Positions 16,899-36,409 of a stretch of DNA of 64,000 nucleotides are shown here, in pieces. The stretch comes from Flavobacteriales bacterium (GTDB taxonomy: Bacteria; Bacteroidota; Bacteroidia; JANQJC01): assembly GCA_028281825.1 (NCBI GenBank), contig JANQJC010000009.1, positions 8,138 to 72,137 of the forward strand, in the 5' to 3' direction. A program made the position numbers and the translations under genes. Position 1 is the stretch's first letter. Each line of letters begins with the position of its first letter. Under the pieces are notes generated by a model. That model made no database searches. It was not told the origin of the DNA and saw only the letters and a program-made list of their open reading frames with translations.

Positions 16899-16907
16899 TT
16901 TACTAAT

Positions 16908-17843: not shown

Positions 17844-17890
17844 TGATATTAAAAGAAGGTGCTAAAATTAGGAAATTAAAAGTTGGTAAC

Positions 17891-20003: not shown

Positions 20004-20020
20004 CAGCGATTATAAAGTTT

Positions 20021-21457: not shown

Positions 21458-21497
21458 TATTTAAAATGCAACATGATTTATCCCAATCATAATAGAA

Positions 21498-22895: not shown

Positions 22896-22951
22896 CTCGC
22901 AACTTTACTAAGTTTTCTATAAAGATAGCATTTGTAAGTGAAACATAGATT

Positions 22952-24733: not shown

Positions 24734-24789
24734 ATGATGCAATCTGGATGTTGAGAAAATGGGTGGAAGTTCAAAGTAGAGGTGCTTTT

Positions 24790-24797
24790 GGTATGGA
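24790..24797 (-). promoter_or_regulatory. Candidate Bacteroidota sigma-A -7 box (TATATTTG on minus strand) for the asnB / radical-SAM / SGNH / GT operon
   Basis: It matches TAnnTTTG and lies about 55 nt upstream of the MCGIAG start. Confidence 0.25.
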
Positions 24798-24882
24798 ACA
24801 AATATAAGCACACAATACATATTGACAATTAATGATATTAGATGCCCGTGTTATGGTATTGTTTCATTGTTCATGAAATTGG

Positions 24883-24890
24883 TACTTTTG
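24883..24890 (+). promoter_or_regulatory. Candidate Bacteroidota sigma-A -7 box (TACTTTTG) for the wzm-led 14-gene operon
   Basis: It matches TAnnTTTG and lies 31 nt upstream of the ATG at 24922, in the divergent intergenic region. Confidence 0.3.
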
Positions 24891-24921: not shown

Positions 24922-25734
24922 ATGAAGAGGATAATTACCAGTGAACCAGATAGCTTAATCCAATACTTGAAGAAGATTTGGGAGTATCGTTCTTTGGTAA
25001 TGGTATTTGCCAGGCGTGATTTAAAAGTTAAATACGCACAAACCTTGCTTGGATTGGGTTGGACCATCATTCAACCACTCACAGGCCTTTTCATTTTCAC
25101 TTTTTTCTTTGGGTATATTTTAAACTTGAATGCCCAGAGTTTGCCTTTTCCACTTTATGTGCTTTCAGGGTTATTGGGTTGGAACTACTTCAGTTATATT
25201 GTTTTTCAGGGTATAGGCGGCGTTCAGGAATCAGGGCATTTCATAAGAAAGGTATACTTCCCTAAGTCTTTATTGCCTTTGTCAAAAGTATTGGTAGGCT
25301 TGGTTGAGTTATCAGTCAGTTTTCTATTACTTATCCCTTTATTGATGTGGTACGGTGAAGGTCTTTCATGGAGGATAATTTTTATACCTGTATTGCTATT
25401 ATTTAACACATTGATTGCCTTATTTGTAGTATTTTTGGTTACTTCTTTTTCCTATCGATTAAGGGACTTATACCACTTGGTGCCGTTTGTCATGTACTTC
25501 GGTATATGGATAACTCCAGTTTTTTTTACTATAGATGTGCTACCAGAGCAACTTCACTTTCTTTGGTTTTTAAATCCCATGGCTTCAGTTGTTGAAGGGT
25601 GGCGATGGTGCCTCTTTAGTGATTGGGCTTTTAACATTAGATTTTTACCAGCATTACTATGTATTATACCAGCCTTCTTGTTCAGTGTGGTATTGTACAG
25701 TAAAGCTGAAAGTAAATTCAGTGATTTTGCATGA
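24922..25734 (+). CDS. ABC-2 type polysaccharide/glycoconjugate export permease (Wzm/TagG-like)
   Basis: It has six predicted transmembrane helices. The N-terminal cytoplasmic stretch (YRSLVMVFARRDLKVKYAQTLLG) is typical of ABC-2 permeases. It overlaps the downstream ATPase by 4 nt. Confidence 0.7.
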   Translation: MKRIITSEPDSLIQYLKKIWEYRSLVMVFARRDLKVKYAQTLLGLGWTIIQPLTGLFIFTFFFGYILNLNAQSLPFPLYVLSGLLGWNYFSYIVFQGIGGVQESGHFIRKVYFPKSLLPLSKVLVGLVELSVSFLLLIPLLMWYGEGLSWRIIFIPVLLLFNTLIALFVVFLVTSFSYRLRDLYHLVPFVMYFGIWITPVFFTIDVLPEQLHFLWFLNPMASVVEGWRWCLFSDWAFNIRFLPALLCIIPAFLFSVVLYSKAESKFSDFA

Positions 25735-26897
25735 GTAGTGGACCTGCCATAAAAGTTGAGAATATCTCAAAAAAGTTTACTCTTCAGCGTTCAATTGAAG
25801 ATGTTGAGGGCAATTATACCAACACGCTGTGGGCATTGAGAGATGTCTCTTTCGAAATAAAAAAAGGCGAAAGTGTAGCTCTCATAGGCCCTAATGGTAG
25901 TGGAAAAAGTACATTACTGCAGATATTGGCAGGAGTGACCAAGCCTACATCAGGAAGAGTGGAGATAGACGGAAAAGTAGCCAGCATTCTGGATATAGGG
26001 GCTGGCTTTCACCCCGAGTTAAGCGGCAGAGAGAATGTTTTCCTGAATGGACAGATATTAGGATTTACCAAAAAAGAGATACAGGCTAAGTACGATGAAA
26101 TAGTTGAATTTAGTGGGGTTAGGAACTTTATAGATGAGCCGGGGAAGAATTACAGCAAAGGGATGTATTTGCGTCTTGCCTTTAGTATTATGGCTCACCT
26201 TGATTTTGACGTTTACCTTCTGGATGAAGTACTTGGTGTGGGGGATGTAGGCTTTCGCTCAAAGTGTTTTGATAAGATTGAGCGGTTGATAGCAGAAGGA
26301 GGAAAGTCATTCTTGATAATTTCTCACGACTTAAATGAAATATCTGAGATATGTGATAAGGCATTTTTGTTGGAGGAGGGAAAAGTGTCAGACAGTATGA
26401 CTATAAACGAAGCATTATATACTTATACCAACACGGGGGAAAAACTGGTACAGGAATTGCCTGACTTTATTGATGATGTGACTGTTGAGTTCACAGGTGA
26501 AGATGGCAGGGTAAAGACGAACTTTATTAATACTGAGCCTGTGACTATATGCGTGAACAACTCATTTAATGAGAGCGGTAACAATGTTCGTGTTGGTATC
26601 AGGCTCACGGATAAACTAAATAATGTGGTGTTTAATGCTAGCCCAGTTTTGTCAAGAGAAGGAATTAAGGAAGTTGACTTTCAGGGAAAGAAACAAATAC
26701 TAGTCACTATACCTCCTAATTTGCTTAATGCAGGTTTCTTTTCCATAGATGTGGTTTACTTTGATGAAAACAAGGTACTATATGAGTTGAAAAAGGTAAG
26801 CACCTTTACGGTGAGTTTGGATATGACCTTTAAGGGACGGGGCATAGTAGGCGAAAGCGGCCCGCTAAAGCCTTATTTGGATTGGGAAGTAAAATAG
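25731..26897 (+). CDS. ABC transporter ATP-binding protein (Wzt/TagH-like) with ~140-aa C-terminal extension
   Basis: Walker A is GPNGSGKST, the signature is YSKGMYLRLAF, and Walker B is VYLLDEV. Beyond residue ~245 there is an extra beta-rich domain, as in O-antigen Wzt carbohydrate-binding domains. Confidence 0.75.
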   Translation: MSSGPAIKVENISKKFTLQRSIEDVEGNYTNTLWALRDVSFEIKKGESVALIGPNGSGKSTLLQILAGVTKPTSGRVEIDGKVASILDIGAGFHPELSGRENVFLNGQILGFTKKEIQAKYDEIVEFSGVRNFIDEPGKNYSKGMYLRLAFSIMAHLDFDVYLLDEVLGVGDVGFRSKCFDKIERLIAEGGKSFLIISHDLNEISEICDKAFLLEEGKVSDSMTINEALYTYTNTGEKLVQELPDFIDDVTVEFTGEDGRVKTNFINTEPVTICVNNSFNESGNNVRVGIRLTDKLNNVVFNASPVLSREGIKEVDFQGKKQILVTIPPNLLNAGFFSIDVVYFDENKVLYELKKVSTFTVSLDMTFKGRGIVGESGPLKPYLDWEVK

Positions 26898-26904
26898 TCA
26901 TGAA

Positions 26905-27273
26905 ATGAAAGGAGCATCTTGGATAAAAATATTTTTTGTCGGCCTTTTCTTGTGGAATGTATTCTTGATTACCACCAATACTCATATTTTTCCAGCGATT
27001 AGATTTCCCCAGTTTCCCAATAAGTACATGGGTAAACACATAACCTATTCTCAGGTCAAATTGTATAGCCACCAAAGTCAGCAGGAAGTAGACCTTATGT
27101 CGGTATTACACCCTTATGATAAACAATATTACCTATTTATTCTGAGGGCATTAGCTAACCAGAAAACAGCCGATGATATGCTTGCTTTGGTTAATAAGAC
27201 TTACCAGCGAAGGTATCAAACCAGTGATAGTCTATATTTTACTTCAGAAGTTAAAACAGTGGATATCCCATGA
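26905..27273 (+). CDS. Small signal-anchored hypothetical protein
   Basis: It has an N-terminal transmembrane segment and is operonic, overlapping both neighbours. Confidence 0.35.
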   Translation: MKGASWIKIFFVGLFLWNVFLITTNTHIFPAIRFPQFPNKYMGKHITYSQVKLYSHQSQQEVDLMSVLHPYDKQYYLFILRALANQKTADDMLALVNKTYQRRYQTSDSLYFTSEVKTVDIP

Positions 27274-28241
27274 GGTTCTTTATATACATATACTACCTCT
27301 TTTACCTGCTGTCAGGTGGTTTCAGGCATTATTACTTTGACTACATGTTCTTCAGCACACTGAAGGGAGAGCCAACTTTTGCTACTCCACTAATTATCCC
27401 TGTTGGAGAAATTACATTGATGGCTTTGGCCATTGGAGTGTTGCTTTTTCCATTGAAGAAATTTTTGCACCTGTTATTCTTCTTAGGACTATTCGTTTTT
27501 GATATGTATTTCCAAAACCAGGTGAACTTCATGAGTTGTTTTACGCTTCCTCATGTTTTTCCTTTGTTCTTTTTCCTTTTTCTGCATTATCAAAAGAATG
27601 AGAAAGCGACCGATTTAGTCACTTTTGCCGCCATGCTCGCAGTGGCTGTTGGTTATTTGGCGAGTTTTACCAGTAAAATAAATTCAGCTTGGTATAACTG
27701 GTCTGACCCAATTATCTACAGCTACATCCTAGAGTTTTATAATGGCTTTCAAGTCCCATCTTTGACATCGGCCTGGCTGGTAAACATCAAAAGCCTGTTC
27801 TTTTGGAAACTTTTAGATTACTCAGTTCTTATGATACAAGCCTCATTTATCCTCGTTTTCCTCAAGAAGAAGAGTTTTTATCCCATTACAGTTTTTGCAG
27901 TTATATTTCATATCGGGATTTTACTCACTTTGGGAATAGGTGTAGTGTTTTTCTTATATACCCTCTTTTATGCATTCACTATATTCATGTCAGTGAACAA
28001 ACCCGATGCTCTCTCCAGCATAGATAAGCCGTTCAGGTTGGGTATATATGCTTTATTGGCAGTTTTTTTTATTTTGTTTGTCACATCAAATGGGGATGTG
28101 AGGGCGTTCAATCGCTTATTGCCAGTTTCTACTTATATTTATATAGAGTATTTTTACGGGTTGATTTGTGTGGTTATTTATGCTTTTTCATTTGCCTTTT
28201 GGCAGAAAAATCAGCATCAAACTCAATTGGTAAGTATTTAA
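27270..28241 (+). CDS. Polytopic integral membrane protein, hypothetical
   Basis: About nine hydrophobic helices are predicted. There is no soluble domain. Confidence 0.45.
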   Translation: MRFFIYIYYLFYLLSGGFRHYYFDYMFFSTLKGEPTFATPLIIPVGEITLMALAIGVLLFPLKKFLHLLFFLGLFVFDMYFQNQVNFMSCFTLPHVFPLFFFLFLHYQKNEKATDLVTFAAMLAVAVGYLASFTSKINSAWYNWSDPIIYSYILEFYNGFQVPSLTSAWLVNIKSLFFWKLLDYSVLMIQASFILVFLKKKSFYPITVFAVIFHIGILLTLGIGVVFFLYTLFYAFTIFMSVNKPDALSSIDKPFRLGIYALLAVFFILFVTSNGDVRAFNRLLPVSTYIYIEYFYGLICVVIYAFSFAFWQKNQHQTQLVSI

Positions 28242-29174
28242 ATGGAGGCTCAGCAAACATATATGGAAGATACCGACTTGTACGTATTGCAACCGGACAG
28301 TATGGATATTTTCCAAAAAGGAGATCCTGATTGGTCAAGGCAATTGAAATACCTGGGCTATACTAAGATAGGTAAGTTGCCACAAGAGGTCTTAGAGGAG
28401 TTGAAAGAGAAATCAGAAACACTTGTTAAAGAGACTAAGAAAAGATACCCTAAAGGGGAGCTGTTTAATCTTATCAATTGTGATTATGACGTAAAAATGG
28501 CTTCTAATGAGATGGTGGATAATTACTTTAACCCGTTTCTCAAAGATATTATAGACACCAATAAGGCGGATGTTTATGCTGTTTCACATTTGGTGAAACC
28601 ATTTGGCCTTAAGAGCGACATTTGGCATCAGGATTCAGCGATTGTGGATGAGCGGGTTGCCTTTTCTTTAAATGCCTGGACACCGTTGGTTAACTCCACC
28701 AAACTAAATGGATGTTTATGGGTTTTTCCTGGAAGTCATATCAATACCAATCTTAATCGCCAGTTTGGGTATAATCCAGTTGAGAAGGATTTGTTGAAAT
28801 CACTTCAGAAGTATATGATACCCGTATATGTAGAAGCGGGTGAGGTATTGCTTTTTCATAGAAGTATTATTCATGGTTCATCAAGAAACTGGTTGCCATA
28901 TTCTCGTTTAGCGGTTGAAAGCGTGGTAGTTTCTAAAGATGTACAGTTTTATAATTTCCATAGGGAAGAAGCATGGTCTAAAGATAAAGTCTATGGTTTT
29001 CAAGTGGATATGGAACACTTTATGAAGCCAGATCCCAAAGAAGATTTCTACAAGGGGACTTATCCAAAGATAGAGTTTGATGACCCTGGTTTTGAAGGAA
29101 TAGCTGAGAACTTACTGAGCCATGTAGCCGAGTATCAAGCCTACGCCAAAAAGTACTACGATGGGGATGCTTGA
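28242..29174 (+). CDS. Phytanoyl-CoA dioxygenase (PhyH)-family Fe(II)/2-oxoglutarate oxygenase
   Basis: The HxD motif is WHQDSA, followed by a distal His (IIHGSSRN). The arrangement is PhyH-like. Confidence 0.6.
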   Translation: MEAQQTYMEDTDLYVLQPDSMDIFQKGDPDWSRQLKYLGYTKIGKLPQEVLEELKEKSETLVKETKKRYPKGELFNLINCDYDVKMASNEMVDNYFNPFLKDIIDTNKADVYAVSHLVKPFGLKSDIWHQDSAIVDERVAFSLNAWTPLVNSTKLNGCLWVFPGSHINTNLNRQFGYNPVEKDLLKSLQKYMIPVYVEAGEVLLFHRSIIHGSSRNWLPYSRLAVESVVVSKDVQFYNFHREEAWSKDKVYGFQVDMEHFMKPDPKEDFYKGTYPKIEFDDPGFEGIAENLLSHVAEYQAYAKKYYDGDA

Positions 29175-29826
29175 AAAAATGCTGGAAAAGAAAAACCAGC
29201 AGGTGAGAAGGCCTTATGGCTATGAAACTCCTCAATGCGTCAAAGAATTTCATGAGAACATAGATGCTATCATTGAAGAATGGAAGAATTATGTGGCTTC
29301 AAGTTCATCTAACGGGACACCAATTGATGAGCTATCATCTGCCCAAGGATACTTGAATGAAGACAAGAAGTGGAAGGCTTTTTTTGTACATATCTATGGG
29401 GAAACTCCTGTAAAAGCTACCAAGTATTTTCCTGTTACGGCCAGGTTAGCCGATAAATGGAAAGATGAAGTAAAATTGGTGTTTTTCTCCAATTTAGAGC
29501 CAGGCAAACATATCCAGCCGCACAAGGGAAACAATCATGGGGTTATCAGGTCACAGATAGGCATTGATATTGGTCAACCCGAAACAACAGGCGTGAGAGT
29601 GGAAGACAAAACCTTTCACATCAAAAACAAAGAATATTTTACGTTTGACGACACTTTTGAGCACGAGGCTTGGAATCGCGGAAGTGGGGACAGGACGGTG
29701 CTTATCATTGATAGCTGCAAGAATTTTTCTTATTTTTATAGCATTATCAACAAGTATTTGCTGAGCAAGATGAAAGACACAGAATACGTTCAGTCCACAC
29801 TTGAGAAATTGAAGAAGACAAATTAA
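29161..29826 (+). CDS. Aspartyl/asparaginyl beta-hydroxylase-family (LpxO-like) oxygenase
   Basis: The family motif LEPGKHIQPHKGNN...FDDTFEHEAWN is present. Confidence 0.65.
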   Translation: MGMLEKMLEKKNQQVRRPYGYETPQCVKEFHENIDAIIEEWKNYVASSSSNGTPIDELSSAQGYLNEDKKWKAFFVHIYGETPVKATKYFPVTARLADKWKDEVKLVFFSNLEPGKHIQPHKGNNHGVIRSQIGIDIGQPETTGVRVEDKTFHIKNKEYFTFDDTFEHEAWNRGSGDRTVLIIDSCKNFSYFYSIINKYLLSKMKDTEYVQSTLEKLKKTN

Positions 29827-29836
29827 GGTTAATACT

Positions 29837-30442
29837 ATGCTTATCATTGGTGCGGGCGGTTTGGCTACAGACGTAATTACCCATTGGGAGTTGGATGAAA
29901 CCAAAGCTTCAGAGGGCCTGTATTTCTTTGATAACTTCAATAAGGATAAAGATTTTTTGTATGATAAGTACAAAATATACCACACTTTTGAAGAAGTAAA
30001 GCACCATTTTGAAACAATGGACAAGACGTTTTGCGTTTGTATTGGCAATCCGCTAAAAAGAAAGAGGATTACTGAGCAAATTGAAGAACTTGGTGGTGAG
30101 CTAACCCCCATTGTATCCTGTAAAGTATTAACCTATAATCCAAATACGCCACTAGGTGGAGGGGTTGTTTTACAATCGGGCGTTGGTGTATCTTTTAACG
30201 CAGTGATAAAAAAAGGAGTTTTTATTAATGCAGGTACTATTTTAGGACATGATGTTATCTTGCATGAGTATGTTTCAGTTGGACCAGGTGTTATGATTTT
30301 AGGAGGTGCAGAGGTAGGAGAGTGCTCATACATTGGAACTAACGCTGTGATAATGCCAGGGGTTAAAATAGGTAAGATGGTACGCATTGGTGTTGGTAAA
30401 ATAATAGAAGAAGATGTTCCGGATAACTCTAAAATAATATAA
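29837..30442 (+). CDS. Hexapeptide-repeat sugar N-acetyltransferase (PglD/NeuD/VioB family)
   Basis: An N-terminal Rossmann-like segment (LIIGAGGLATDV) is followed by a left-handed beta-helix of hexapeptide repeats (GVFINAGTILGHDVILHEYVSVGPG...). Confidence 0.7.
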   Translation: MLIIGAGGLATDVITHWELDETKASEGLYFFDNFNKDKDFLYDKYKIYHTFEEVKHHFETMDKTFCVCIGNPLKRKRITEQIEELGGELTPIVSCKVLTYNPNTPLGGGVVLQSGVGVSFNAVIKKGVFINAGTILGHDVILHEYVSVGPGVMILGGAEVGECSYIGTNAVIMPGVKIGKMVRIGVGKIIEEDVPDNSKII

Positions 30443-30443
30443 G

Positions 30444-31220
30444 ATGGAATTCTTTTCAGTATGTGAAACCGGAACGGGTCAAGGCGATTTTAAGTTGCTA
30501 TTTGAGAACACTAAAGTGGTGCATGTAAAACACGACTTTCAGCAGGAGTCTATCCCTGATTTTTATAAAGGCCTGGCCAAAACAGTAGGTATTCCCCTTA
30601 TTTATGAGGAAGACCCCGTAACTGGGCAAGTTCATGTTAACAAGTGGACGGAGATTAAGTATGATGCTGATAAAGCCACTGATACCTACAAGCATAGTAA
30701 CAAATCTCAGCCCTTGCATACGGATTATGGTTATTTCTCCTTTGAGATATATTCTGCTTTTTTCTACTGCTCGGCACAAGCCCGATTTGGTGGAGCCACC
30801 ACTTTTATAGATGTAGATAAATTGGTGGAAATCCTAGATTGGGAAAACAAGGAATTACTCAATCAATTGCAGGAAAGGAAGATACAGTTCGGTAGACAAG
30901 GCAATCCCATTGCCCATAATGAGGATTATATTTTGCAGCAAGATAGTGTAGGTTGGAAGATGAACTGGAACTATTATCGCGCCAAAGGAGATACCCAGAA
31001 TCAGGATTTAGTAGAAAACTTTTTTGCTTTTATGAATGATATTGTGGAGAAGAGTGGTGAGTTGACAGAGTTGAAACTACAACCCAACGAAGCAGTATTT
31101 TTTCACGATAGGCGAGTATTACATGGAAGAAATTCGTTTATTGGGGAGCGTCAACTTAATAAGGGTGGAATAGCCAAAGAGTTGCCGCAATCAGTACTTC
31201 AATTATTAGAACTTGCTTAA
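30444..31220 (+). CDS. TauD/TfdA-family (clavaminate-synthase-like) Fe(II)/2OG dioxygenase
   Basis: The HxD motif is LHTDYGYF, a GGATTF block is present, and the distal HxR is VLHGRN. Confidence 0.5.
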   Translation: MEFFSVCETGTGQGDFKLLFENTKVVHVKHDFQQESIPDFYKGLAKTVGIPLIYEEDPVTGQVHVNKWTEIKYDADKATDTYKHSNKSQPLHTDYGYFSFEIYSAFFYCSAQARFGGATTFIDVDKLVEILDWENKELLNQLQERKIQFGRQGNPIAHNEDYILQQDSVGWKMNWNYYRAKGDTQNQDLVENFFAFMNDIVEKSGELTELKLQPNEAVFFHDRRVLHGRNSFIGERQLNKGGIAKELPQSVLQLLELA

Positions 31221-32140
31221 TGGAGCCTGTTAAGGTGAGTGTGGTTGTAGTAACTTACAATCACGAAAAATATATATCTGATGCTATCAAAAGCATATTG
31301 GCCCAAAAGGTCAATTTTAAGATAGAAGTCATTATTGCTGATGATGGCTCCACAGATAACACTCCCACTATAGTTGATCAGTTTGCCAAGAACTATCCTG
31401 ATACAATTGTCCCATTACGCTCTGCCGAAAATCGAGGAGTTTTTCAGAATGCATTCAGTGCCAGGTTTAAGGTGCGGGGGCAGTACATTGCCTTGCTAGA
31501 TGGTGACGATTACTGGGATTATGAGTTGAAGCTACAAAAGCAGGTTGACTTCCTTGATGGGAACAGTGAGTATAATGGTGTCTTCCATGATGCCAAGATT
31601 ACACACATAGATAGCTCTGATAAAGTTCTCTTTGCTCAAAAGCATCTCTATTCTCAAAATTATCTCTTTAAAGAAGAAATTTACCCTTCAGACTTTATCC
31701 AAAGGGAAATTATCTTACCCTCATCATCAGCAATGATTAGATCTTCTGCATTGGATGGAGTGGATATCAGTATCATTAAGAATAACTATTCCTTTTTTTG
31801 GAAAGTTTGTTGTTTTATCATCAGGCAATCTAAGTTTTATTTCATCAATGAGCCTTGGAGTGTATATAGAAACCATCAACAGGGTATATCTAAGCGTAAT
31901 AATTACGAATTCCATACTTCGCATATTAAGTTTTTGGAAACTCTCTTGGAAGAGGAATTTTACAAAAACTATAAGTATAATGTGTGTCAGGCTATTGCTA
32001 ATGAATACAAAGTGCTACTTGATTCAAGCCATGAAGAAGTAAGGAAGAACATAAGGACTATTTTTAAGCAGTATGTCCGTAACGAGGTGCGCAGAATATG
32101 GCATTACAGGAAAAAGGTAATAGGTAAAGGAGAACAGTGA
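31220..32140 (+). CDS. Family 2 glycosyltransferase
   Basis: The GT2 N-terminus is VSVVVVTYNHEKYI...IIADDGSTDNT, with LLDGDDYW downstream. Confidence 0.8.
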   Translation: MEPVKVSVVVVTYNHEKYISDAIKSILAQKVNFKIEVIIADDGSTDNTPTIVDQFAKNYPDTIVPLRSAENRGVFQNAFSARFKVRGQYIALLDGDDYWDYELKLQKQVDFLDGNSEYNGVFHDAKITHIDSSDKVLFAQKHLYSQNYLFKEEIYPSDFIQREIILPSSSAMIRSSALDGVDISIIKNNYSFFWKVCCFIIRQSKFYFINEPWSVYRNHQQGISKRNNYEFHTSHIKFLETLLEEEFYKNYKYNVCQAIANEYKVLLDSSHEEVRKNIRTIFKQYVRNEVRRIWHYRKKVIGKGEQ

Positions 32141-32917
32141 ATGAAGCCAGCCAAGAGTATCCCCCGCATATCACCTATACATAAGACTAAATTTTTCAAA
32201 GAATATGTTTCTCTGGCTAAGCCTGTAATTATTGAAGGTTTGGTAGATGAGTGGCCCGCTTTTGGCAAATGGAGTATGCAGTATTTTGCAGAAAGGTATG
32301 CTAAGGTGGCTCCTGTTACTGTTAAGGTCAAGGATGGGAAACACGATTTTGACTTGGAGCATGGCACTGGCATATTCAACAAGCCTATGGAAGAGACGCT
32401 CAAAAAAATAATGGCTGGAAATGTTAGCGAGGGATATGCCATAGGCACTACTGATGAAGTCTTTCCGCAGGAGCTAAGAGACGATTACCCCACCCCAGGG
32501 TATTGTGCTGATGGTAAGTATTTAAGAGCGCGTATTTTTATTGGGGCAAAAGGCACTATTACCGAAACCCATCAAGACTTGTTCGAGAACCTTTATACTG
32601 TAGTCAAAGGTTCAAAGCGTATTTACCTTTTTGAGCCAAAGGATAGTATATACCCTAACTCCCGTTTCTCAAAGCTGCCCAACTTTGCGCGGACTGACCC
32701 CGAGAATCCCGATTATGAAAACTATCCAAAAATGCGGAATGCCCAACCATATGTTGTAGATTTGAAGGCTGGTGAGACCCTCTTTTTACCAAGCCTGTGG
32801 TGGCATTACGTTAAGAACCAAGAGGAAAGTATAGCTGTGAGTTATTGGTGGGCATATGGATGGAAACTACCTTTGGTGTGGGCCGCAGTGCAGTATAAAA
32901 AGTTCAGGGGTATCTAG
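32141..32917 (+). CDS. JmjC/cupin-8 domain oxygenase
   Basis: The HxD motif is THQDLFEN within a double-stranded beta-helix context. The distal His lies in SLWWHYVKN, which is typical of cupin-8/JmjC hydroxylases. Confidence 0.55.
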   Translation: MKPAKSIPRISPIHKTKFFKEYVSLAKPVIIEGLVDEWPAFGKWSMQYFAERYAKVAPVTVKVKDGKHDFDLEHGTGIFNKPMEETLKKIMAGNVSEGYAIGTTDEVFPQELRDDYPTPGYCADGKYLRARIFIGAKGTITETHQDLFENLYTVVKGSKRIYLFEPKDSIYPNSRFSKLPNFARTDPENPDYENYPKMRNAQPYVVDLKAGETLFLPSLWWHYVKNQEESIAVSYWWAYGWKLPLVWAAVQYKKFRGI

Positions 32918-32952
32918 GTTGGTACATCCAACCGATTCAAGAAAGACTAATA

Positions 32953-34506
32953 ATGGGTAAGAAGCTATTATATAGAATCTTATTGACTGCAATTGTTGTA
33001 GTCACTTCCGTATTTCATAATGACTCATTGAGATATGGCCTTTCTACCGATGGACCTGATGTGTGGGAGTACCAGACGGTAGCCGTCAATTTTTCAGAAT
33101 ATGGGGAGTTTCCCACAATGGGCTTTATTGGAGACGAGCCTTGCTACCAAACTAATATACTTGAAGGCAATACCCTCTCCAACTACATGAAATGTAGGTT
33201 TTCAACCCCTGGACCACTAGTCTATTTGGCGAAACCCCCTGCTTATCCCTTTATACTTGGTTTGGTTTACAAGATATTTGGAGCCAACCTCAAGTATGCC
33301 TACAACCTTAATTTATTATTTTTCATTGGAATCGTCTTTGTGTTGATAGGGATGGGGCAAACCATCAATAATGACTATGGGGTGCTACTTGGAGTATTAG
33401 CAGGGCTTCTATTTGGTACGCAAGTCTATCATAGCTTGTCGGATGTCCTTCCGGCTATCATGATGACTTTCTTTTTTGCCTGCATTGCATGGGTGGGGGT
33501 GTTGGTTGTAAAAACTCCAACACATAAGAAATTCTCCTTGATGGGTATTATGATTGGACTAGGCTTATTGACCAAAGGAGATATCAGTTTTATAGCCATA
33601 CTAATCCCTATTTGCTTAGCTTTCTTCTTATTCCGTATCGATAAGTTGATGACTAAAATGGTGATAATGTTCTTATCCGTTGCCCTCGTGTTACTGCCTT
33701 GGGTTATCTATGCTAACTATTTGAGGGTAAATACACAAACAGAAAGAGTGGAGTGGAAGCAGAAACTGTTAGAATCAGAGCAAGTGTGTGAATTGGATAC
33801 TTCCAAAAGAGAGGAGTGGGAGAATCGAGGCAGTATTATTGAAAACAAAGAGTATCATTCACTAGCAACTCACTTTTATTCAAGATACGCGATTGGAGAT
33901 AAAATGGTGATAATTTCCAATCAAGTTAATAAGGACGAATGGCTTTCAGTGCACAATGAATTTAGTACTGATGGGCATTGGCACCCAGAGTGGAGAGTAA
34001 GGGAAAGTGCCATTTACAATAATAAATATCAAGACAAACCTGTTTTGATGAAGGTCGTCTCATTCTATGCGGATAATCCAAGTCTCTTTTTCAAGATAGC
34101 TATGGCCAAGTTGGTAAGGGCGACAAGTAGTACCAACACCTTTTTGCTGCTTGCTGCATTTTTGTTTGGATGTTTGATGTGGATGTTGGGAATAGGAGTA
34201 GATAAGACGTTTTTAAATGTTATTTTTTTGTTGATTTCAGGGTTAGGATATTTAATATTACACCATCTCAATTTTCAACTTTTAATCGTTTATACCATTA
34301 TATTCTTTTTATCAGGATTATTATTGTTTAGAAGAAACATGATAAAAGACATTCCATTTATATTTCCATTGTTCATTCTAAATACCTTTTTAATCACATT
34401 TATTTTTTATGGAGACGCCAGGTTTGTATACGTGATTGAGCCAATTGCTATCTTTTCAGCCCTTTATTTCCTATCTTCGTTAGTTAAAAGTTTTTTTGAA
34501 CGCTAG
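32953..34506 (+). CDS. Polytopic membrane glycosyltransferase-like protein (GT-C fold, ArnT/PMT-like)
   Basis: N-terminal transmembrane helices are followed by AKPPAYPF in the first periplasmic loop, as in GT39/GT83 enzymes. A soluble middle domain and a C-terminal transmembrane bundle follow. Confidence 0.4.
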   Translation: MGKKLLYRILLTAIVVVTSVFHNDSLRYGLSTDGPDVWEYQTVAVNFSEYGEFPTMGFIGDEPCYQTNILEGNTLSNYMKCRFSTPGPLVYLAKPPAYPFILGLVYKIFGANLKYAYNLNLLFFIGIVFVLIGMGQTINNDYGVLLGVLAGLLFGTQVYHSLSDVLPAIMMTFFFACIAWVGVLVVKTPTHKKFSLMGIMIGLGLLTKGDISFIAILIPICLAFFLFRIDKLMTKMVIMFLSVALVLLPWVIYANYLRVNTQTERVEWKQKLLESEQVCELDTSKREEWENRGSIIENKEYHSLATHFYSRYAIGDKMVIISNQVNKDEWLSVHNEFSTDGHWHPEWRVRESAIYNNKYQDKPVLMKVVSFYADNPSLFFKIAMAKLVRATSSTNTFLLLAAFLFGCLMWMLGIGVDKTFLNVIFLLISGLGYLILHHLNFQLLIVYTIIFFLSGLLLFRRNMIKDIPFIFPLFILNTFLITFIFYGDARFVYVIEPIAIFSALYFLSSLVKSFFER

Positions 34507-34533
34507 GCATACGTTGTAAAGGAGGAGAAAAGC

Positions 34534-35544
34534 ATGGATACTTACAGGTTATTGCAGATGGGTGCTGCTTATGCGCAGAGTTTATCTTCGTTTCACTTAA
34601 ATGGGAAGCCACGCCCGTTTTCTGCTTCTTTTGCGATTACCAATAAGTGTAATTTGAGGTGCACCTATTGTGATTTACCCAATATCAAAGCACCAGAACT
34701 CAATCTGGAGCAAATGGATGTCCTTTTCAGGAAATTGAAGAAAATGGGCGTCTTGAGGCTCGGTATCTTTGGTGGTGAACCCATGGTGAGGAAAGATTTG
34801 GGGGAGATTATCAAATTAGCTAAGAAACGAGGCTTTTTTGTCAGTCTTAACTCCAATATGCTGTTGTATGACAGGTATAAAGATGTGCTTGACCCAGTTG
34901 ATTACTTTTTTGTGAGTATAGATGGCACTGCTGAGAAACATGCAATAAATAGAGGTAAACAGAGCTACGAAAAGATTCTCGAAGCAACTCGGGATTTAGT
35001 AAAACGCAAGAAGAAAGTAACAGCAATATCTGTTGTAACTGACCCTGATAAGTCTATGGCAGATTATATGGTTGACCTAGCTGTGCGTGAGAAGATAGAT
35101 GTGCATTTTCAGCCTGAGTGCTATGATTCAATGTGTGCAGGGAGGACTGCGCCTGACGACCTAGAGCATGAAGCAACAAGGGATTTTTGGTTATACCTGC
35201 TGGAAAAGAAGAAACAGGGAGCTCCCATCACCAGTTCTACTGGTTATTTGAAATTTATCAGTCAATGGCACAATTACAAACAGACTTCGGTATACGATGC
35301 TGAACATCGTTGCATGGCGGGGAGCGGATTTATTTCAATAGATCCTTCTGGTATTGCTTATCCTTGTATTTTTACACAGGGTAATTTTGAAGGGGTTGAC
35401 TTGATGAAGTATAATTGGGAAGATAAATTTGATGGAAAGACCCCTTGCACTACCTGCATTGTAGGTCCTTTGTTGGAGTATAACTTATTGTTTAAGAAAC
35501 CAATAAGGTCTACTATTGAAGCGTTGGGTAAGGCAGTTTATTAA
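34534..35544 (+). CDS. Radical SAM / SPASM(twitch)-domain enzyme
   Basis: The radical SAM motif is ITNKCNLRCTYCD, followed by GIFGGEPM. The C-terminal SPASM-type motif is C-x12-G-x4-C (CMAGSGFISIDPSGIAYPC), with CTTC downstream. Confidence 0.75.
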   Translation: MDTYRLLQMGAAYAQSLSSFHLNGKPRPFSASFAITNKCNLRCTYCDLPNIKAPELNLEQMDVLFRKLKKMGVLRLGIFGGEPMVRKDLGEIIKLAKKRGFFVSLNSNMLLYDRYKDVLDPVDYFFVSIDGTAEKHAINRGKQSYEKILEATRDLVKRKKKVTAISVVTDPDKSMADYMVDLAVREKIDVHFQPECYDSMCAGRTAPDDLEHEATRDFWLYLLEKKKQGAPITSSTGYLKFISQWHNYKQTSVYDAEHRCMAGSGFISIDPSGIAYPCIFTQGNFEGVDLMKYNWEDKFDGKTPCTTCIVGPLLEYNLLFKKPIRSTIEALGKAVY

Positions 35545-35560
35545 AAAAGTATAAGAGCCA

Positions 35561-36409
35561 ATGGCTTCTATGGACATGAATAAAGAAGTGGTTACAAAAG
35601 AGGATTTATTAAAGTACTATGATGAGTGCTGGCTAGAGAGATTTGAGAAGGGCCATAATCCTAAATCACTCGCTATGCACCTTGGTTATTTTACTGAGGA
35701 AAGCATGGATAACGATGCCGCCAAGGTAAATACCAATAAGTTCTTGGCCGAGCATTTAGGTATTAAAAATGATACCAAAGCCAGTTTGGCTGACTTTGGT
35801 TGCGGAATTGGTGGCACTTGCATTTACCTGGCTAAAAACTATCCTAACCTAAGGATAAGTGGTATCAATATTTCTTCAACACAAGTTGATTTTGCCAACA
35901 GGATTAAAGAACAAAACAATATTAATGGCCAAATTGAGTATTTGATTTCAGATTACTCAAAAACGAATCTTGCCGACTCAAGTTTAGATTATGTAATTGC
36001 AGTAGAGAGCATATGCCATGCGGTAGATAAGCAAAAGGTATATTCAGAGGCTTATCGAGTGCTAAAACCAGGGGGGCGCTTCGTATTCATGGACTATTTT
36101 GAAGAGCGAGAAGCTAACACCCCTGAAGAACTAGAATGGTTAAGTGACTTTAGAAAAGGCTGGGCCATTATTGAATATATAAGAAATCACGGTGAATTAC
36201 TTAGCCAGGTAGATTTTAGCCATATCACCCAAACATCGCTTCTGGATAAAGTAGGACCAGGTATTTTAAATTCATATACCAAGGCAGTTGCCAAACTTGG
36301 GGACAATAGCTCTGAGACATTTAATAATCATTTAAAGGCTTGTGTTGCCCTTAAAGAACTTACAGACAGGGGCATTATAGATTATAAGATAATTACCGCT
36401 CAAAAGTAA
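35561..36409 (+). CDS. Class I SAM-dependent methyltransferase
   Basis: Motif I is LADFGCGIGG and the post-I acidic residue is ISGINIS. The scaffold resembles CFA synthase or sterol MTases. Confidence 0.8.
   Translation: MASMDMNKEVVTKEDLLKYYDECWLERFEKGHNPKSLAMHLGYFTEESMDNDAAKVNTNKFLAEHLGIKNDTKASLADFGCGIGGTCIYLAKNYPNLRISGINISSTQVDFANRIKEQNNINGQIEYLISDYSKTNLADSSLDYVIAVESICHAVDKQKVYSEAYRVLKPGGRFVFMDYFEEREANTPEELEWLSDFRKGWAIIEYIRNHGELLSQVDFSHITQTSLLDKVGPGILNSYTKAVAKLGDNSSETFNNHLKACVALKELTDRGIIDYKIITAQK

What the first reader, a model, noticed from the sequence alone, without database searches (positions are those of the whole stretch)
28242..32917. Four distinct Fe(II)/2-oxoglutarate-type oxygenases within 4.7 kb, interleaved with sugar-modifying enzymes
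PhyH-like (HQDSA...HGSS), AspH/LpxO-like (HIQPH...FDDTFEHEAWN), TauD-like (HTD...HGR) and JmjC/cupin-8 (HQD...WWHYV) ORFs are interleaved with a PglD-like acetyltransferase and a GT2 gene. AspH and LpxO homologs hydroxylate Asp/Asn residues or lipid A acyl chains, and JmjC proteins hydroxylate protein side chains. Four such enzymes acting on one exported product would give a poly-hydroxylated molecule. The substrates (sugar, acyl chain or peptide) are unknown.
Basis: partly seen in the sequence, partly recalled or inferred. Interest (0 to 1): 0.7.

Follow-up and report, generated by a model that had tools for sequence, protein, structure and literature searches.

The report
Oxygenase-rich surface-glycan export gene cluster
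Four unrelated iron/2-oxoglutarate oxygenases with intact active sites sit in one operon with a polysaccharide exporter in an uncultured Bacteroidota bacterium, and the operon belongs to an undescribed cluster family that probably makes a heavily oxidised cell-surface glycoconjugate of unknown structure.

Summary
Window 28242-32917 encodes PhyH-like, AspH/OlsC-like, TauD-like and JmjC/Cupin_8 (JMJD5-like) oxygenases, interleaved with a PglD-type N-acyltransferase and a GT2. All four keep their iron and 2-oxoglutarate ligands, and their relatives keep them too.

They lie in a 13-gene + strand operon (24922-36409). It starts with the Wzm/Wzt exporter, whose Wzt carries a carbohydrate-binding Wzt_C domain. 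It ends with a GT-C (PMT_2), a twitch radical-SAM enzyme and a methyltransferase. A UbiA gene converges on its end, and an AsnB-like/N-twitch-rSAM/GDSL/GT8 operon diverges from its start.

The whole layout recurs at 50-82% identity in three other metagenome loci. A core of UbiA, rSAM, Cupin_8 and GT-C recurs in at least 10 further Chitinophagales/Bacteroidia MAG loci, with varying arrays of PhyH (up to 8 genes), AspH-like, WelO5-like and B12-rSAM genes. One locus fuses Wzt to a PhyH domain homologous to the window's PhyH.

Best reading, about 0.5 confidence: cytoplasmic oxidative tailoring of a lipid-linked glycan before ABC export. Substrates and products are unknown, and "poly-hydroxylated" is unproven. 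I found no published description. Verdict: new variant of a known kind, moderately high interest.

The parts
28242..29174 (+). PhyH-like Fe(II)/2OG oxygenase (310 aa), cytoplasmic
   Evidence: Pfam PhyH E 4e-17. PDB best hits are PHYHD1 and PhyH, with a weak hit to EvdO2. H129-x-D131...H211...R222 is conserved in cluster-family ORFs. No TM segment. Homologous to the PhyH domain fused to Wzt in L008.
29161..29826 (+). AspH/OlsC/LpxO-family oxygenase (221 aa) with an AspH-type two-His iron site
   Evidence: Pfam Asp_Arg_Hydrox E 7e-30. NCBIfam OlsC 102 bits and LpxO 55 bits, both far below cut-off. Aligns to human AspH, including H..G, FEHE(A/V)W and the 2OG Arg. H121, H168 and R178 are invariant in 12 ORFs.
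29837..30442 (+). PglD/PerB/VioB-type left-handed beta-helix N-acyltransferase (201 aa)
   Evidence: Pfam Hexapep and PglD_N. NCBIfam NeuD/PglB/VioB 134 bits. PDB best hits are Neisseria PglB acetyltransferase domain, PerB, VioB and PglD.
30444..31220 (+). Short TauD/TfdA-family Fe(II)/2OG oxygenase (258 aa)
   Evidence: Pfam TauD E 2e-18. Weak best NCBIfam hits are TMLH, BBOX and TmpA. Rare subfamily: 267 representatives at E<1e-3 among 1.84 billion. H92, D94, H227 and R236 are conserved. The PglD-TauD-GT2 adjacency recurs in L066 and L067.
31220..32140 (+). Soluble GT2 (GT-A) glycosyltransferase (306 aa)
   Evidence: Pfam Glycos_transf_2 E 6e-26. PDB best hits are chondroitin synthase and GalT1-type GT-A domains. 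No TM segment.
32141..32917 (+). JmjC/Cupin_8 oxygenase (258 aa), JMJD5-like
   Evidence: Pfam Cupin_8 E 2e-47. Human JMJD5 E 1e-32 over the full length. H144, D146, N150, K159 and H222 are conserved. Small family of about 48 clusters at 41% identity or more.
24922..25734 (+). Wzm, the ABC-2 permease; first gene of the operon
   Evidence: Pfam ABC2_membrane. Syntenic in L004, L007 and L065.
25731..26897 (+). Wzt, the ABC ATPase with a C-terminal carbohydrate-binding Wzt_C domain
   Evidence: Pfam ABC_tran, plus Wzt_C at 37.9 bits against a cut-off of 30.4. 36% identical over its full length to the Wzt part of the L008 Wzt-PhyH fusion.
24881..24888 (+). TACTTTTG, a match to the Bacteroidota -7 promoter consensus TAnnTTTG, about 35 nt upstream of wzm in the 101-nt divergent intergenic region
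   Evidence: Read directly from the sequence. The consensus comes from my own knowledge and was not tested. The sigma-70 scan was uninformative: 52 sites found against 51 expected.
26905..27273 (+). 122-aa membrane-anchored protein with no family
   Evidence: No Pfam or NCBIfam hit. One N-terminal TM segment. Conserved only in the four fully syntenic loci.
27270..28241 (+). 323-aa polytopic membrane protein, an orphan family
   Evidence: No Pfam hit. Only 9 homologues among 5.8 billion proteins. Invariant polar residues include H20, H67, D78, Q82, N83, K136, K180, D183 and H214. The AF2 model has pLDDT 85.5 but no convincing PDB fold match.
32953..34506 (+). GT-C fold glycosyltransferase (PMT_2/ArnT-like), 517 aa, about 10 TM segments
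   Evidence: Pfam PMT_2 30.6 bits against a cut-off of 26.1. TM profile. Co-occurs with the Cupin_8/rSAM core in at least 10 loci. No PDB sequence hit.
34534..35544 (+). Twitch-type radical SAM enzyme (336 aa); the most conserved gene of the cluster family
35561..36409 (+). Class I SAM-dependent methyltransferase; last gene of the operon
   Evidence: Pfam Methyltransf_11/25/31. Conserved in the syntenic loci, and weaker relatives occur in L008 and L009.
36400..37254 (-). UbiA-superfamily membrane prenyl/phosphoribosyl transferase, convergent with the operon and overlapping its end by 10 nt
   Evidence: Pfam UbiA E 4e-25. PDB best is AfUbiA 4tq3. Both Asp-rich motifs are present. In 10 other loci a UbiA gene directly precedes the rSAM.
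37295..38782 (-). 495-aa secreted or anchored protein with a faint transglutaminase-like core
   Evidence: No Pfam hit at E<1e-3. The L065 orthologue carries a faint Transglut_core hit. Relatives follow AsnB in L004 and L066.
22952..24820 (-). AsnB-type glutamine-dependent amidotransferase; first gene of the divergent operon
   Evidence: Pfam Asn_synthase and GATase_7. NCBIfam asn_synth_AEB 472 bits against a cut-off of 267. Present in L004, L007, L065 and L066.
20021..22895 (-). Two tandem N-terminal-twitch radical SAM paralogues (21498-22895 and 20021-21457)
   Evidence: NCBIfam N_Twi_rSAM 167 and 160 bits against a cut-off of 170. Pfam places the SPASM domain before the Radical_SAM domain. 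Homologues occur in L011, L065 and L066.
15993..20003 (-). Distal part of the divergent operon: two GDSL/SGNH hydrolases (18879-20003 and 17891-18946), a GT8 (16908-17843) and an unassigned 301-aa protein (15993-16898)
   Evidence: Pfam Lipase_GDSL and Glyco_transf_8. N-terminal TM or signal segments in both GDSL proteins. GDSL genes recur in L010, L018 and L064.

Best explanation
Window about 15993-38782 is a biosynthesis and export locus for a cell-surface glycoconjugate (O-polysaccharide- or capsule-like). The host is an uncultured Chitinophagales-type Bacteroidota bacterium.

Proposed mechanism:
1. A glycan is built on a polyprenyl carrier at the cytoplasmic face. Its residues probably include N-acylated amino sugars and amidated uronic acids.
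2. Four soluble, catalytically competent Fe(II)/2OG oxygenases of four different families oxidise unactivated C-H positions. Their targets are the lipid-linked glycan or its activated precursors. Most likely these are non-sugar substituents (N-acyl or amide groups installed by the PglD-like and AsnB-like enzymes) and/or deoxy-sugar carbons.
3. Wzm/Wzt then exports the product. The Wzt_C domain reads a feature of it.
4. In the periplasm a GT-C transferase adds a further residue from a lipid-linked donor. That donor is made by the UbiA enzyme and edited by the BlsE-like twitch rSAM and the JmjC oxygenase.

Shown: family membership; intact active sites; cytoplasmic location; one tightly packed operon with the exporter; conserved synteny; two recurrent sub-modules; a Wzt-PhyH domain fusion in a related locus.

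Inferred: the glycan nature of the substrate, the positions oxidised, the reaction outcome (hydroxylation or some other oxidation), and the role of the UbiA/rSAM/JmjC/GT-C module.
For: Operon structure. The 13 + strand genes from wzm to the methyltransferase are separated by -14 to +35 nt.

Exporter. Wzt carries a Wzt_C carbohydrate-binding domain above the Pfam cut-off.

Location. All four oxygenases lack TM segments and keep their ligands.

Sugar-pathway genes in the window.
- A PglD/PerB/VioB-type acyltransferase.
- GT2, GT8 and a GT-C.
- An AsnB-type amidotransferase.

Sugar-pathway genes in related loci.
- WbuX N-acetyl-sugar amidotransferase, 210 bits against a cut-off of 203.
- A carbamoyltransferase.
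- An NAD-epimerase and a GT4.

Fusion. In L008 one protein combines the ABC ATPase, Wzt_C and PhyH. It aligns with the window Wzt over its full length at 36% identity, and then with the window PhyH, including the HQD, H and R motifs.

Synteny and modules.
- The full layout recurs in L065, L004/L006 and L007.
- AspH-PglD-TauD-GT2 recurs on its own in L066, together with N-twitch rSAMs and AsnB.
- rSAM plus Cupin_8 co-occur in 12 of 16 loci. UbiA and PMT_2 accompany them in most.

Composition. GC drops to 0.33-0.39 across 16-40 kb against 0.40-0.44 in the flanks. This is typical of surface-polysaccharide loci.

Precedent. PhyH-like 2OG oxygenases that act on oligosaccharides are known: EvdO1/O2, AviO1 and HygX (PMC13374393).
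Against: - No initiating phosphoglycosyltransferase, chain-polymerising multidomain GT, aminotransferase or 4,6-dehydratase lies in the window cluster.
- No Fe/2OG enzyme of the JmjC or AspH type is known to act on a carbohydrate. Their characterised substrates are proteins, tRNA or acyl chains.
- Several other cluster-family genes belong to families best known from protein or lipid chemistry. These are FGE-sulfatase, PMT_2-TPR, transglutaminase-like and LPG_synthase_TM.
- The window UbiA shows no specific similarity to decaprenyl-phosphate phosphoribosyltransferase.
- No chemistry has been observed. All organisms that carry the locus are uncultured.
Confidence: 0.5

Rival explanations
1. The oxygenases act on the lipid part of an exported isoprenoid or acyl glycolipid. 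UbiA attaches a prenyl chain to a head group. The rSAM, B12-rSAMs and oxygenases then couple, methylate and hydroxylate the hydrocarbon chains, as PhyH, OlsC and LpxO do on acyl or isoprenoid chains. The ABC-2 transporter exports the lipid.
For: - The AspH-like protein's best curated hits are the lipid hydroxylases OlsC and LpxO.
- PhyH is named after an isoprenoid-acyl hydroxylase.
- The window UbiA resembles archaeal prenyltransferases most closely: PRK12884 and AfUbiA.
- The rSAM's best PDB sequence hit is the tetraether synthase GDGT-MAS at 37 bits.
- LPG_synthase_TM flippase-like genes occur in 6 related loci, and GDSL acylhydrolases in several.
- B12-rSAMs in related loci resemble hopanoid and lipid methylases as much as anything else.
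Against: - All these similarities are weak and far below the family cut-offs.
- The Wzt_C domain, the PglD-type sugar N-acyltransferase, WbuX, GT2, GT8, GT4 and GT-C genes point to carbohydrate.
- No isoprenoid-chain synthase or fatty-acid genes are in the cluster.
Confidence: 0.2
2. The substrate is a protein or peptide: a heavily post-translationally modified surface protein or a RiPP. JmjC (Arg/Lys), AspH (Asp/Asn), FGE-like, rSAM and B12-rSAM enzymes modify side chains, and the PMT_2 GT-C O-glycosylates the product. This follows the Iyer/Aravind prediction for multi-dioxygenase operons.
For: - The canonical substrates of JMJD5, AspH, FGE, PMT and transglutaminase are proteins.
- Iyer et al. 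2010 (PMC2938197) found operons that combine beta-hydroxylase, PhyH and JmjC genes, and predicted peptide modification.
- PMT_2-TPR fusions occur in 5 related loci.
- The rSAM fold is also close to SkfB, SuiB and anSME.
- A giant T9SS PKD/CHU_C adhesin gene borders the cluster here (10516-15849). One also lies directly upstream of wzm in L004.
Against: - No small ORF is conserved across the cluster family. The only conserved one (122 aa, membrane-anchored) is limited to the four closest loci.
- The rSAM motif starts at residue 39, which leaves no room for an N-terminal RiPP-recognition domain.
- No peptidase, leader-processing gene or NRPS is present.
- Wzt_C, the sugar acyltransferase and the amidotransferases go unexplained.
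- The oxygenases are cytoplasmic, whereas T9SS cargo and PMT substrates are modified outside the cytoplasm.
Confidence: 0.15
3. The clustering has no functional meaning. The four genes are unrelated housekeeping oxygenases or inactive pseudo-enzymes that happen to be adjacent.
For: None was found. The only point in its favour is that no substrate is known for any of them.
Against: - Ligands are conserved in all four families.
- The ORFs are intact and of family-typical length.
- Start and stop codons overlap or abut.
- Synteny is conserved at 50-82% identity in three other loci.
- The sub-modules recur in more distant loci.
- A Wzt-PhyH fusion exists.
Confidence: 0.03

Closest known systems
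ABC-transporter-dependent O-polysaccharide/capsule pathway (Wzm/Wzt with Wzt_C, e.g. E. coli O9a, Aquifex aeolicus; PMC9445017, PMC3482155)
   Same: - A Wzm permease and a Wzt ATPase with a C-terminal carbohydrate-binding domain head the operon.
- Glycosyltransferases and a SAM methyltransferase (a possible capping enzyme) are co-encoded.
- Tailoring would take place in the cytoplasm before export.
   Different: - No WbdD-like kinase/methyltransferase terminator and no polymerising GTs are recognisable.
- Four Fe/2OG oxygenases, three rSAM enzymes, a UbiA and a GT-C are embedded, none of which belongs to the classical pathway.
- In a related locus the Wzt itself is fused to a PhyH oxygenase domain. 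I found no published precedent for this.
Orthosomycin oxygenases EvdO1/EvdO2/AviO1/HygX (PhyH-like Fe/2OG enzymes acting on oligosaccharides; PMC13374393)
   Same: - Several PhyH-fold 2OG oxygenases in one cluster act on a sugar chain late in assembly.
- EvdO2 is a weak PDB hit of the window PhyH-like protein (E 0.002).
   Different: - Those are actinomycete antibiotic pathways with no Wzm/Wzt exporter.
- Sequence similarity here is marginal.
- The reaction outcome there is oxidative cyclisation to an orthoester, which cannot be assumed here.
Multi-dioxygenase operons predicted by Iyer, Abhiman, de Souza and Aravind 2010 (PMC2938197)
   Same: The same theme: distantly related dioxygenase families (JmjC, beta-hydroxylase/AspH, PhyH, clavaminate-synthase/TauD-like) assembled into one operon, with methyltransferases, acetyltransferases and radical SAM enzymes alongside.
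   Different: - Those neighbourhoods contain NRPS, ATP-grasp ligases, tryptophan halogenases or sulfotransferases, and were predicted to modify peptides.
- None is described with Wzm/Wzt, UbiA or GT-C genes, or in Chitinophagales MAGs.
Human JMJD5/KDM8 (arginyl C3-hydroxylase)
   Same: - Full-length alignment at E 1e-32.
- Identical HxD...H iron ligands.
- The 2OG-binding Asn and Lys are conserved.
   Different: - Bacterial, single-domain, and encoded between a GT2 and a GT-C in an exporter operon.
- The substrate is unknown.
- A protein arginine substrate has not been shown and is not suggested by the context.
AspH / LpxO / OlsC family (Asp_Arg_Hydrox)
   Same: Two-His iron site (H-x-G ... 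FEHE-W) and a 2OG-binding Arg, as in human AspH. OlsC is the best curated hit.
   Different: - Scores are far below the equivalog cut-offs: 102 against 450 for OlsC and 55 against 500 for LpxO.
- No TM anchor like LpxO's, and no TPR domain like AspH's.
- It sits next to a sugar N-acyltransferase, not lipid A or ornithine-lipid genes.
Lipid-linked pentose donor pathways feeding GT-C enzymes (mycobacterial UbiA/DprE1/DprE2 to DPA to Emb/Aft; ArnA-T for Und-P-Ara4N), plus the radical SAM uronate decarboxylase BlsE
   Same: - A UbiA-superfamily enzyme, a sugar-editing redox enzyme and a GT-C transferase are encoded together.
- UbiA genes of the distant loci weakly best-hit decaprenyl-phosphate phosphoribosyltransferase, 34.6 bits for L063.
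- The rSAM's best fold match is BlsE.
- L066 carries a FAD_binding_4/ALO oxidase of the DprE1 type.
   Different: - The window UbiA shows no such hit.
- There are no DprE1/E2 or ArnA-D homologues in the window.
- The editing enzymes would be a twitch rSAM and a JmjC oxygenase, a combination not known for any lipid-linked sugar.

Membership tests
PhyH (PF05721) Fe(II)/2OG oxygenases | Profile match above the gathering score | tested here: met
   63.5 bits against a cut-off of 22.
PhyH (PF05721) Fe(II)/2OG oxygenases | HxD...H facial triad plus a 2OG C5-carboxylate Arg | tested here: met
   H129, D131, H211 and R222 align with PHYHD1 and PhyH. H, H and R are conserved in 26 of 26 related ORFs and D in 23 of 26.
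PhyH (PF05721) Fe(II)/2OG oxygenases | Phytanoyl-CoA (or any defined) substrate | not testable with these tools
   No equivalog-level hit. The best NCBIfam hit is 'sporadic carbohydrate cluster 2OG-Fe(II) oxygenase' at 34 bits against a cut-off of 150.
AspH / LpxO / OlsC (PF05118) | Profile match, and the AspH-type two-His site (H-x-G, second His in FEHE-W) with a 2OG Arg | tested here: met
   104.5 bits against a cut-off of 22.6. H121, G123, H168 and R178 align with AspH. H, H and R are conserved in 12 of 12 ORFs.
LpxO (lipid A hydroxylase) / OlsC (ornithine-lipid hydroxylase) equivalogs | Score at or above the NCBIfam equivalog cut-off | tested here: not met
   OlsC 102 bits against 450; LpxO 55 bits against 500. 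No TM anchor.
TauD/TfdA (PF02668) | Profile match, HxD...H triad and a 2OG Arg | tested here: met
   67.9 bits against a cut-off of 27. H92, D94, H227 and R236 are at least 90% conserved in 32 relatives.
Trimethyllysine / gamma-butyrobetaine dioxygenase equivalogs | Score at or above the NCBIfam cut-off | tested here: not met
   47.8 bits against 268 and 41.3 bits against 415. The protein lacks the N-terminal domain of these enzymes (258 aa against about 360-390).
JmjC / Cupin_8, JMJD5-like | Profile match, HxD...H triad, and 2OG-binding Asn/Lys | tested here: met
   Cupin_8 162 bits against a cut-off of 27.4. JMJD5 E 1e-32 over the full length. H144, D146, N150, K159 and H222 are conserved.
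JmjC / Cupin_8, JMJD5-like | Protein arginyl C3-hydroxylase activity | not testable with these tools
   Sequence similarity only. The gene context is glycan-type, not ribosomal or chromatin.
ABC-transporter-dependent glycan export (Wzm/Wzt) | ABC-2 permease plus an ATPase with a Wzt_C carbohydrate-binding domain | tested here: met
   ABC2_membrane, ABC_tran, and Wzt_C at 37.9 bits against a cut-off of 30.4.
ABC-transporter-dependent glycan export (Wzm/Wzt) | Co-encoded initiating transferase, polymerising GTs and a chain terminator | tested here: inconclusive
   Only a GT2, a GT8, a GT-C and a stand-alone methyltransferase are present. No WecA/WbaP- or WbdD-like protein was found in the window.
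RiPP / peptide-modifying cluster | A conserved precursor-peptide gene next to the modifying enzymes, and an RRE domain on the rSAM | tested here: not met
   No small ORF is shared across 18 loci, except a 122-aa membrane protein found in the four closest. The rSAM cluster motif starts at residue 39.
Decaprenyl-phosphate phosphoribosyltransferase-type UbiA (DPA-like pathway) | Specific similarity to the DPPR synthase models | tested here: inconclusive
   The window UbiA gives no hit at E<0.1. The L063 UbiA's best hit is NF008977 at 34.6 bits, and the L002 UbiA scores 21.5 bits; both are far below the cut-off of 234.

The most novel reading that the evidence does not exclude
The locus family encodes a previously unseen route to a hyper-oxidised, and in some lineages C-methylated or halogenated, envelope polymer.
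- 'Protein-type' hydroxylases (JMJD5-like JmjC and AspH-like) have been recruited to act on carbohydrate or lipid-linked sugar substrates.
- A UbiA / twitch-rSAM / JmjC trio makes a new kind of lipid-linked donor for a GT-C transferase.
- Oxidation by a PhyH enzyme that docks on, or is fused to, Wzt acts as the chain-end mark licensing ABC export.
Probability: 0.2. Interest if true: 0.85.

Novelty: new variant of a known kind. Interest (0 to 1): 0.6.

Why it matters
If the best reading holds, this would be the first glycan pathway to use JmjC- and AspH-type oxygenases. It would also be the first Wzm/Wzt system coupled, physically in one lineage, to an oxygenase.

That would extend the substrate range of two enzyme families studied almost only as protein hydroxylases. 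It would also add oxidative C-H functionalisation to the known repertoire of bacterial surface-polysaccharide tailoring.

The family is confined to uncultured Chitinophagales/Bacteroidia from freshwater and wastewater metagenomes, so it also flags unexplored envelope chemistry in an abundant environmental group.

Each enzyme is small and soluble and has a simple assay (2OG turnover, +16 Da), so the question can be tested directly by heterologous expression.

Tried and rejected
2. **Sigma-70 promoter and terminator scan.** It found no more sites than in shuffled sequence, 52 against 51. It is uninformative for Bacteroidota.
3. **Profile of the 556-590-aa membrane protein that partners AspH-like genes in distant loci.** It has no relative in the window, and is unrelated to the 323-aa protein or to PMT_2.
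4. **PDB sequence searches.** PMT_2 gave no hit. The GT2 matched only generic GT-A domains.
5. **RiPP hypothesis.** An all-against-all comparison of small ORFs across 18 loci found no shared precursor candidate.
6. **Halogenase idea for the window PhyH-like protein.** Rejected, because it has HQD and not HxG/A.
7. **LpxO, OlsC, TMLH or BBOX identity.** Rejected on the curated cut-offs.
8. **Literature.** Eight full-text searches found no paper that links PhyH, JmjC or AspH-type oxygenases, or a UbiA-rSAM pair, to Wzm/Wzt loci or to Chitinophagales.
9. **TauD-like relatives at about 35% identity or below.** They sit in unrelated housekeeping contexts (L068), so only relatives at 41% identity or above inform function.
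10. **tRNA scan.** No tRNA in the window, so no tRNA marks an island boundary.

Full report
**1. The observation**

Pfam assigns them as follows, each above its gathering score:

| Coordinates | Family | E-value |
|---|---|---|
| 28242-29174 | PhyH | 4e-17 |
| 29161-29826 | Asp_Arg_Hydrox | 7e-30 |
| 29837-30442 | Hexapep + PglD_N | |
| 30444-31220 | TauD | 2e-18 |
| 31220-32140 | Glycos_transf_2 | 6e-26 |
| 32141-32917 | Cupin_8 | 2e-47 |

They do, in all four.
- **PhyH-like:** H129-x-D131, H211 and R222 align with PHYHD1 and PhyH. In 26 related ORFs, H129, H211 and R222 are present in all 26 and D131 in 23.
- **AspH-like:** the unusual two-His site of human AspH is present (H121-x-G123, H168 in FEHEAW), together with the 2OG Arg R178. 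H121, H168 and R178 are invariant in 12 ORFs.
- **TauD-like:** H92-x-D94, H227 and R236 are at least 90% conserved among 32 relatives.
- **Cupin_8:** the protein aligns over its full length with human JMJD5 (E 1e-32). H144, H222 and N150 are invariant; D146 and K159 are at least 90% conserved.

None has a TM segment. They are genuine 2OG oxygenases, not sugar-isomerase cupins or pseudo-enzymes.

**2. What surrounds them**

They are genes 5, 6, 8 and 10 of a 13-gene operon (24922-36409).
- It starts with Wzm and a Wzt that carries a Wzt_C carbohydrate-binding domain.
- Two orphan membrane proteins follow.
- It ends with a PMT_2-type GT-C, a twitch radical SAM enzyme and a SAM methyltransferase.
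- A UbiA gene converges on its end and overlaps it by 10 nt. A faintly transglutaminase-like protein follows.
- A divergent operon (15993-24820, - strand) encodes an AsnB-type amidotransferase, two N-terminal-twitch rSAM paralogues, two GDSL hydrolases, a GT8 and an unassigned protein.
- The 101-nt divergent intergenic region contains TACTTTTG about 35 nt before wzm. This matches the Bacteroidota -7 motif, which I cite from my own knowledge.
- GC falls to 0.33-0.39 across the cluster against 0.40-0.44 outside it.
- The host is a Bacteroidota bacterium, judged from T9SS C-terminal domains in several flanking proteins. The rest of the window is housekeeping.

**3. Conservation**

*Rarity of the families.*
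- The Cupin_8 protein belongs to a small family: about 48 clusters at 41% identity or more among 5.8 billion proteins, all unnamed.
- The rSAM family has about 66 clusters at 44% identity or more, then a gap to 32%.
- The TauD-like subfamily has 267 representatives among 1.84 billion.
- The 323-aa membrane protein has 9 homologues in all.

*Phyletic range.* A scan of one genome per GTDB species found Cupin_8 relatives above 35% identity only in uncultured Chitinophagales/Bacteroidia MAGs. Relatives at 25-31% identity in Emticicia and Saprospiraceae lack the neighbouring genes.

*Full synteny.* The complete layout, from wzm to UbiA plus AsnB, recurs in L065 and in L004/L006 and L007. L065 is the closest: its 323-aa membrane protein is 76% identical to the window's and the rSAM from the same contig 81%. 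L004/L006 and L007 are 50-74% identical.

*Two sub-modules recur beyond that.*
- **Module A:** AspH-like, PglD-like (three copies), TauD-like and GT2, flanked by N-twitch rSAMs, AsnB and the transglutaminase-like protein. It occurs without module B in L066. L067 shows rSAM, TauD and GT2 together.
- **Module B:** UbiA directly followed by the rSAM (50-57% identical to the window's), with Cupin_8 and a PMT_2 GT-C. Twelve of the 16 loci whose Cupin_8 is at least 35% identical also hold the rSAM. L064 adds a further UbiA-rSAM-PMT_2 example.

*Variable genes around module B.*
- PhyH: 2 to 8 genes. L018 has eight, two of them tandem double-PhyH proteins.
- AspH-like: 1-2 genes, often paired with a polytopic protein of about 570 aa.
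- A second Cupin_8 next to an FGE-sulfatase-domain protein.
- 1-4 B12-binding rSAMs.
- WelO5-like oxygenases, a fifth 2OG family.
- LPG_synthase_TM proteins, PMT_2-TPR proteins and Wzm/Wzt.

*The fusion.* In L008 (and probably L009, which was not checked domain by domain) one polypeptide combines the ABC ATPase, Wzt_C and a PhyH domain. It aligns with the window Wzt over its full length at 36% identity. Its C-terminal part then aligns with the window PhyH-like protein, including the HQD, H and R motifs. This Rosetta-stone fusion ties the first oxygenase of the finding to the exporter.

**4. What the substrate probably is**

*Evidence for carbohydrate.*
- The Wzt_C domain.
- The acyltransferase's closest solved relatives are nucleotide-4-amino-sugar N-acetyltransferases: Neisseria PglB, PerB, VioB and PglD.
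- GT2, GT8 and GT-C genes in the window.
- An AsnB-type amidotransferase, as used to amidate uronic acids (established knowledge, for example WbpS-type enzymes).
- In related loci: a WbuX N-acetyl-sugar amidotransferase above its cut-off, a carbamoyltransferase, and an epimerase and a GT4.
- PhyH-fold oxygenases that act on oligosaccharides have precedent in orthosomycin biosynthesis (PMC13374393).

I therefore favour cytoplasmic oxidative tailoring of a polyprenyl-linked glycan, or of its activated precursors, before Wzm/Wzt export. Module B would supply or edit a lipid-linked donor for periplasmic GT-C decoration. My confidence is about 0.5.

*What is inference.* The positions oxidised, whether the outcome is hydroxylation, and the role of module B. 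The analogy with the UbiA to DPA to GT-C pathway and with the Arn pathway rests only on weak hits and on gene content.

**5. Rivals**

- **Lipid substrate (0.2).** It is suggested by the weak OlsC/LpxO, archaeal-UbiA and GDGT-MAS similarities, and by LPG_synthase_TM and GDSL genes. The carbohydrate-specific genes and the fold ranking outweigh it.
- **Protein or peptide substrate (0.15).** This was the prediction Iyer et al. made for multi-dioxygenase operons (PMC2938197). It fits the canonical substrates of JMJD5, AspH, FGE and PMT. Against it, no precursor-like ORF is conserved across 18 loci, the rSAM has no room for an RRE domain, and the oxygenases are cytoplasmic.
- **Chance adjacency or dead enzymes (0.03).** The conservation data exclude this.

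**6. Comparison with the known, and novelty**

Each enzyme is an ordinary member of a known superfamily. None reaches an equivalog cut-off for a characterised function.

Operons that combine several dioxygenase families have been described in general terms (PMC2938197). Wzm/Wzt export is textbook. New here are:
- the combination of four to nine 2OG oxygenases of up to five families inside a Wzm/Wzt locus;
- the conserved UbiA / twitch-rSAM / JmjC / GT-C core;
- the Wzt-PhyH fusion;
- the restriction to uncultured Chitinophagales/Bacteroidia.

Eight literature searches found no description.

I rate it a new variant of a known kind, with interest 0.6. The most novel reading not excluded is that JmjC and AspH enzymes act on glycans and that oxidation serves as the export mark. 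I give that a probability of about 0.2.

Noticed in passing
L008:1886-3913 (- strand); also L063:19648-21002: A single 675-aa protein fuses the Wzt ABC ATPase, the Wzt_C carbohydrate-binding domain and a PhyH oxygenase domain. I found no published precedent for an oxygenase fused to an O-antigen-type exporter.
   Followed up: yes
L018 (whole locus); L017:1536-3458; L019:1468-3417: L018 carries eight PhyH-like genes within 20 kb. Proteins of about 573-650 aa in L017, L018 and L019 contain two tandem PhyH domains.
   Followed up: partly
L015:17224-18126 (-); L010:18437-19333 (+); L018:1249-2061 (-): WelO5-like proteins, a fifth Fe/2OG family, occur in three related loci. In a three-sequence alignment the L015 copy has H-C-G where the others have H-x-D. 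That is a halogenase-type site, so one lineage may halogenate its product.
   Followed up: partly
window 27270-28241: An orphan polytopic membrane protein with only 9 homologues among 5.8 billion proteins. It has many invariant polar residues (H20, H67, D78, Q82, N83, K136, K180, D183, H214) and a confident AF2 model, but no PDB fold match. It may be an unrecognised membrane enzyme.
   Followed up: yes
window 20021-22895 (- strand): Two tandem paralogues of the N-terminal-twitch radical SAM family (NF033640), with the SPASM/twitch domain placed before the rSAM core. They score 160 and 167 bits, just under the cut-off of 170. Homologues flank the AspH-PglD-TauD-GT2 module in L066.
   Followed up: partly
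window 10516-15849 (- strand); L004:1-2739: A 1777-aa T9SS adhesin-like protein with about 19 PKD repeats and a CHU_C sorting domain borders the cluster. In L004 a 3809-aa SprB/PKD/CHU_C protein lies directly upstream of wzm. Whether this adjacency is functional (a modified cargo?) or merely syntenic is unknown.
   Followed up: no
window 49938-51110 and 48929-49906 (- strand): A phosphosulfolactate synthase (ComA) fused to a rhodanese domain lies next to a VCA0040-like undecaprenyl-phosphate translocase. The ComA-rhodanese fusion may relate to sulfonate or sulfonolipid metabolism in Bacteroidota.
   Followed up: no
window 16000-40000: GC content falls to 0.33-0.39 across the cluster against 0.40-0.44 in the flanks. 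This is consistent with a horizontally exchanged surface-structure locus.
   Followed up: no
L002:10781-13182; L010:10780-13453; L014:1388-4103: A second Cupin_8 gene is paired with an FGE-sulfatase-domain protein (GldK/PvdO/EgtB-like) immediately downstream of the core Cupin_8, on the opposite strand. In L002 the second Cupin_8 is split into two ORFs.
   Followed up: no
L018:5299-6525 and relatives in L015, L019, L020: Multihaem c-type cytochrome genes (MtrC/MtrF-like, paired CXXCH) recur in four of the oxygenase-rich loci. This is unexplained.
   Followed up: no
L066:1744-3138: A FAD_binding_4/ALO oxidase, with the domain pair of DprE1 and sugar-lactone oxidases, sits directly upstream of the AspH-PglD-TauD-GT2 module in L066.
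   Followed up: no
window 36400-36409: The 3' ends of the methyltransferase gene (+) and the UbiA gene (-) overlap convergently by 10 nt. The same arrangement is kept in L004, L007 and L065.
   Followed up: partly
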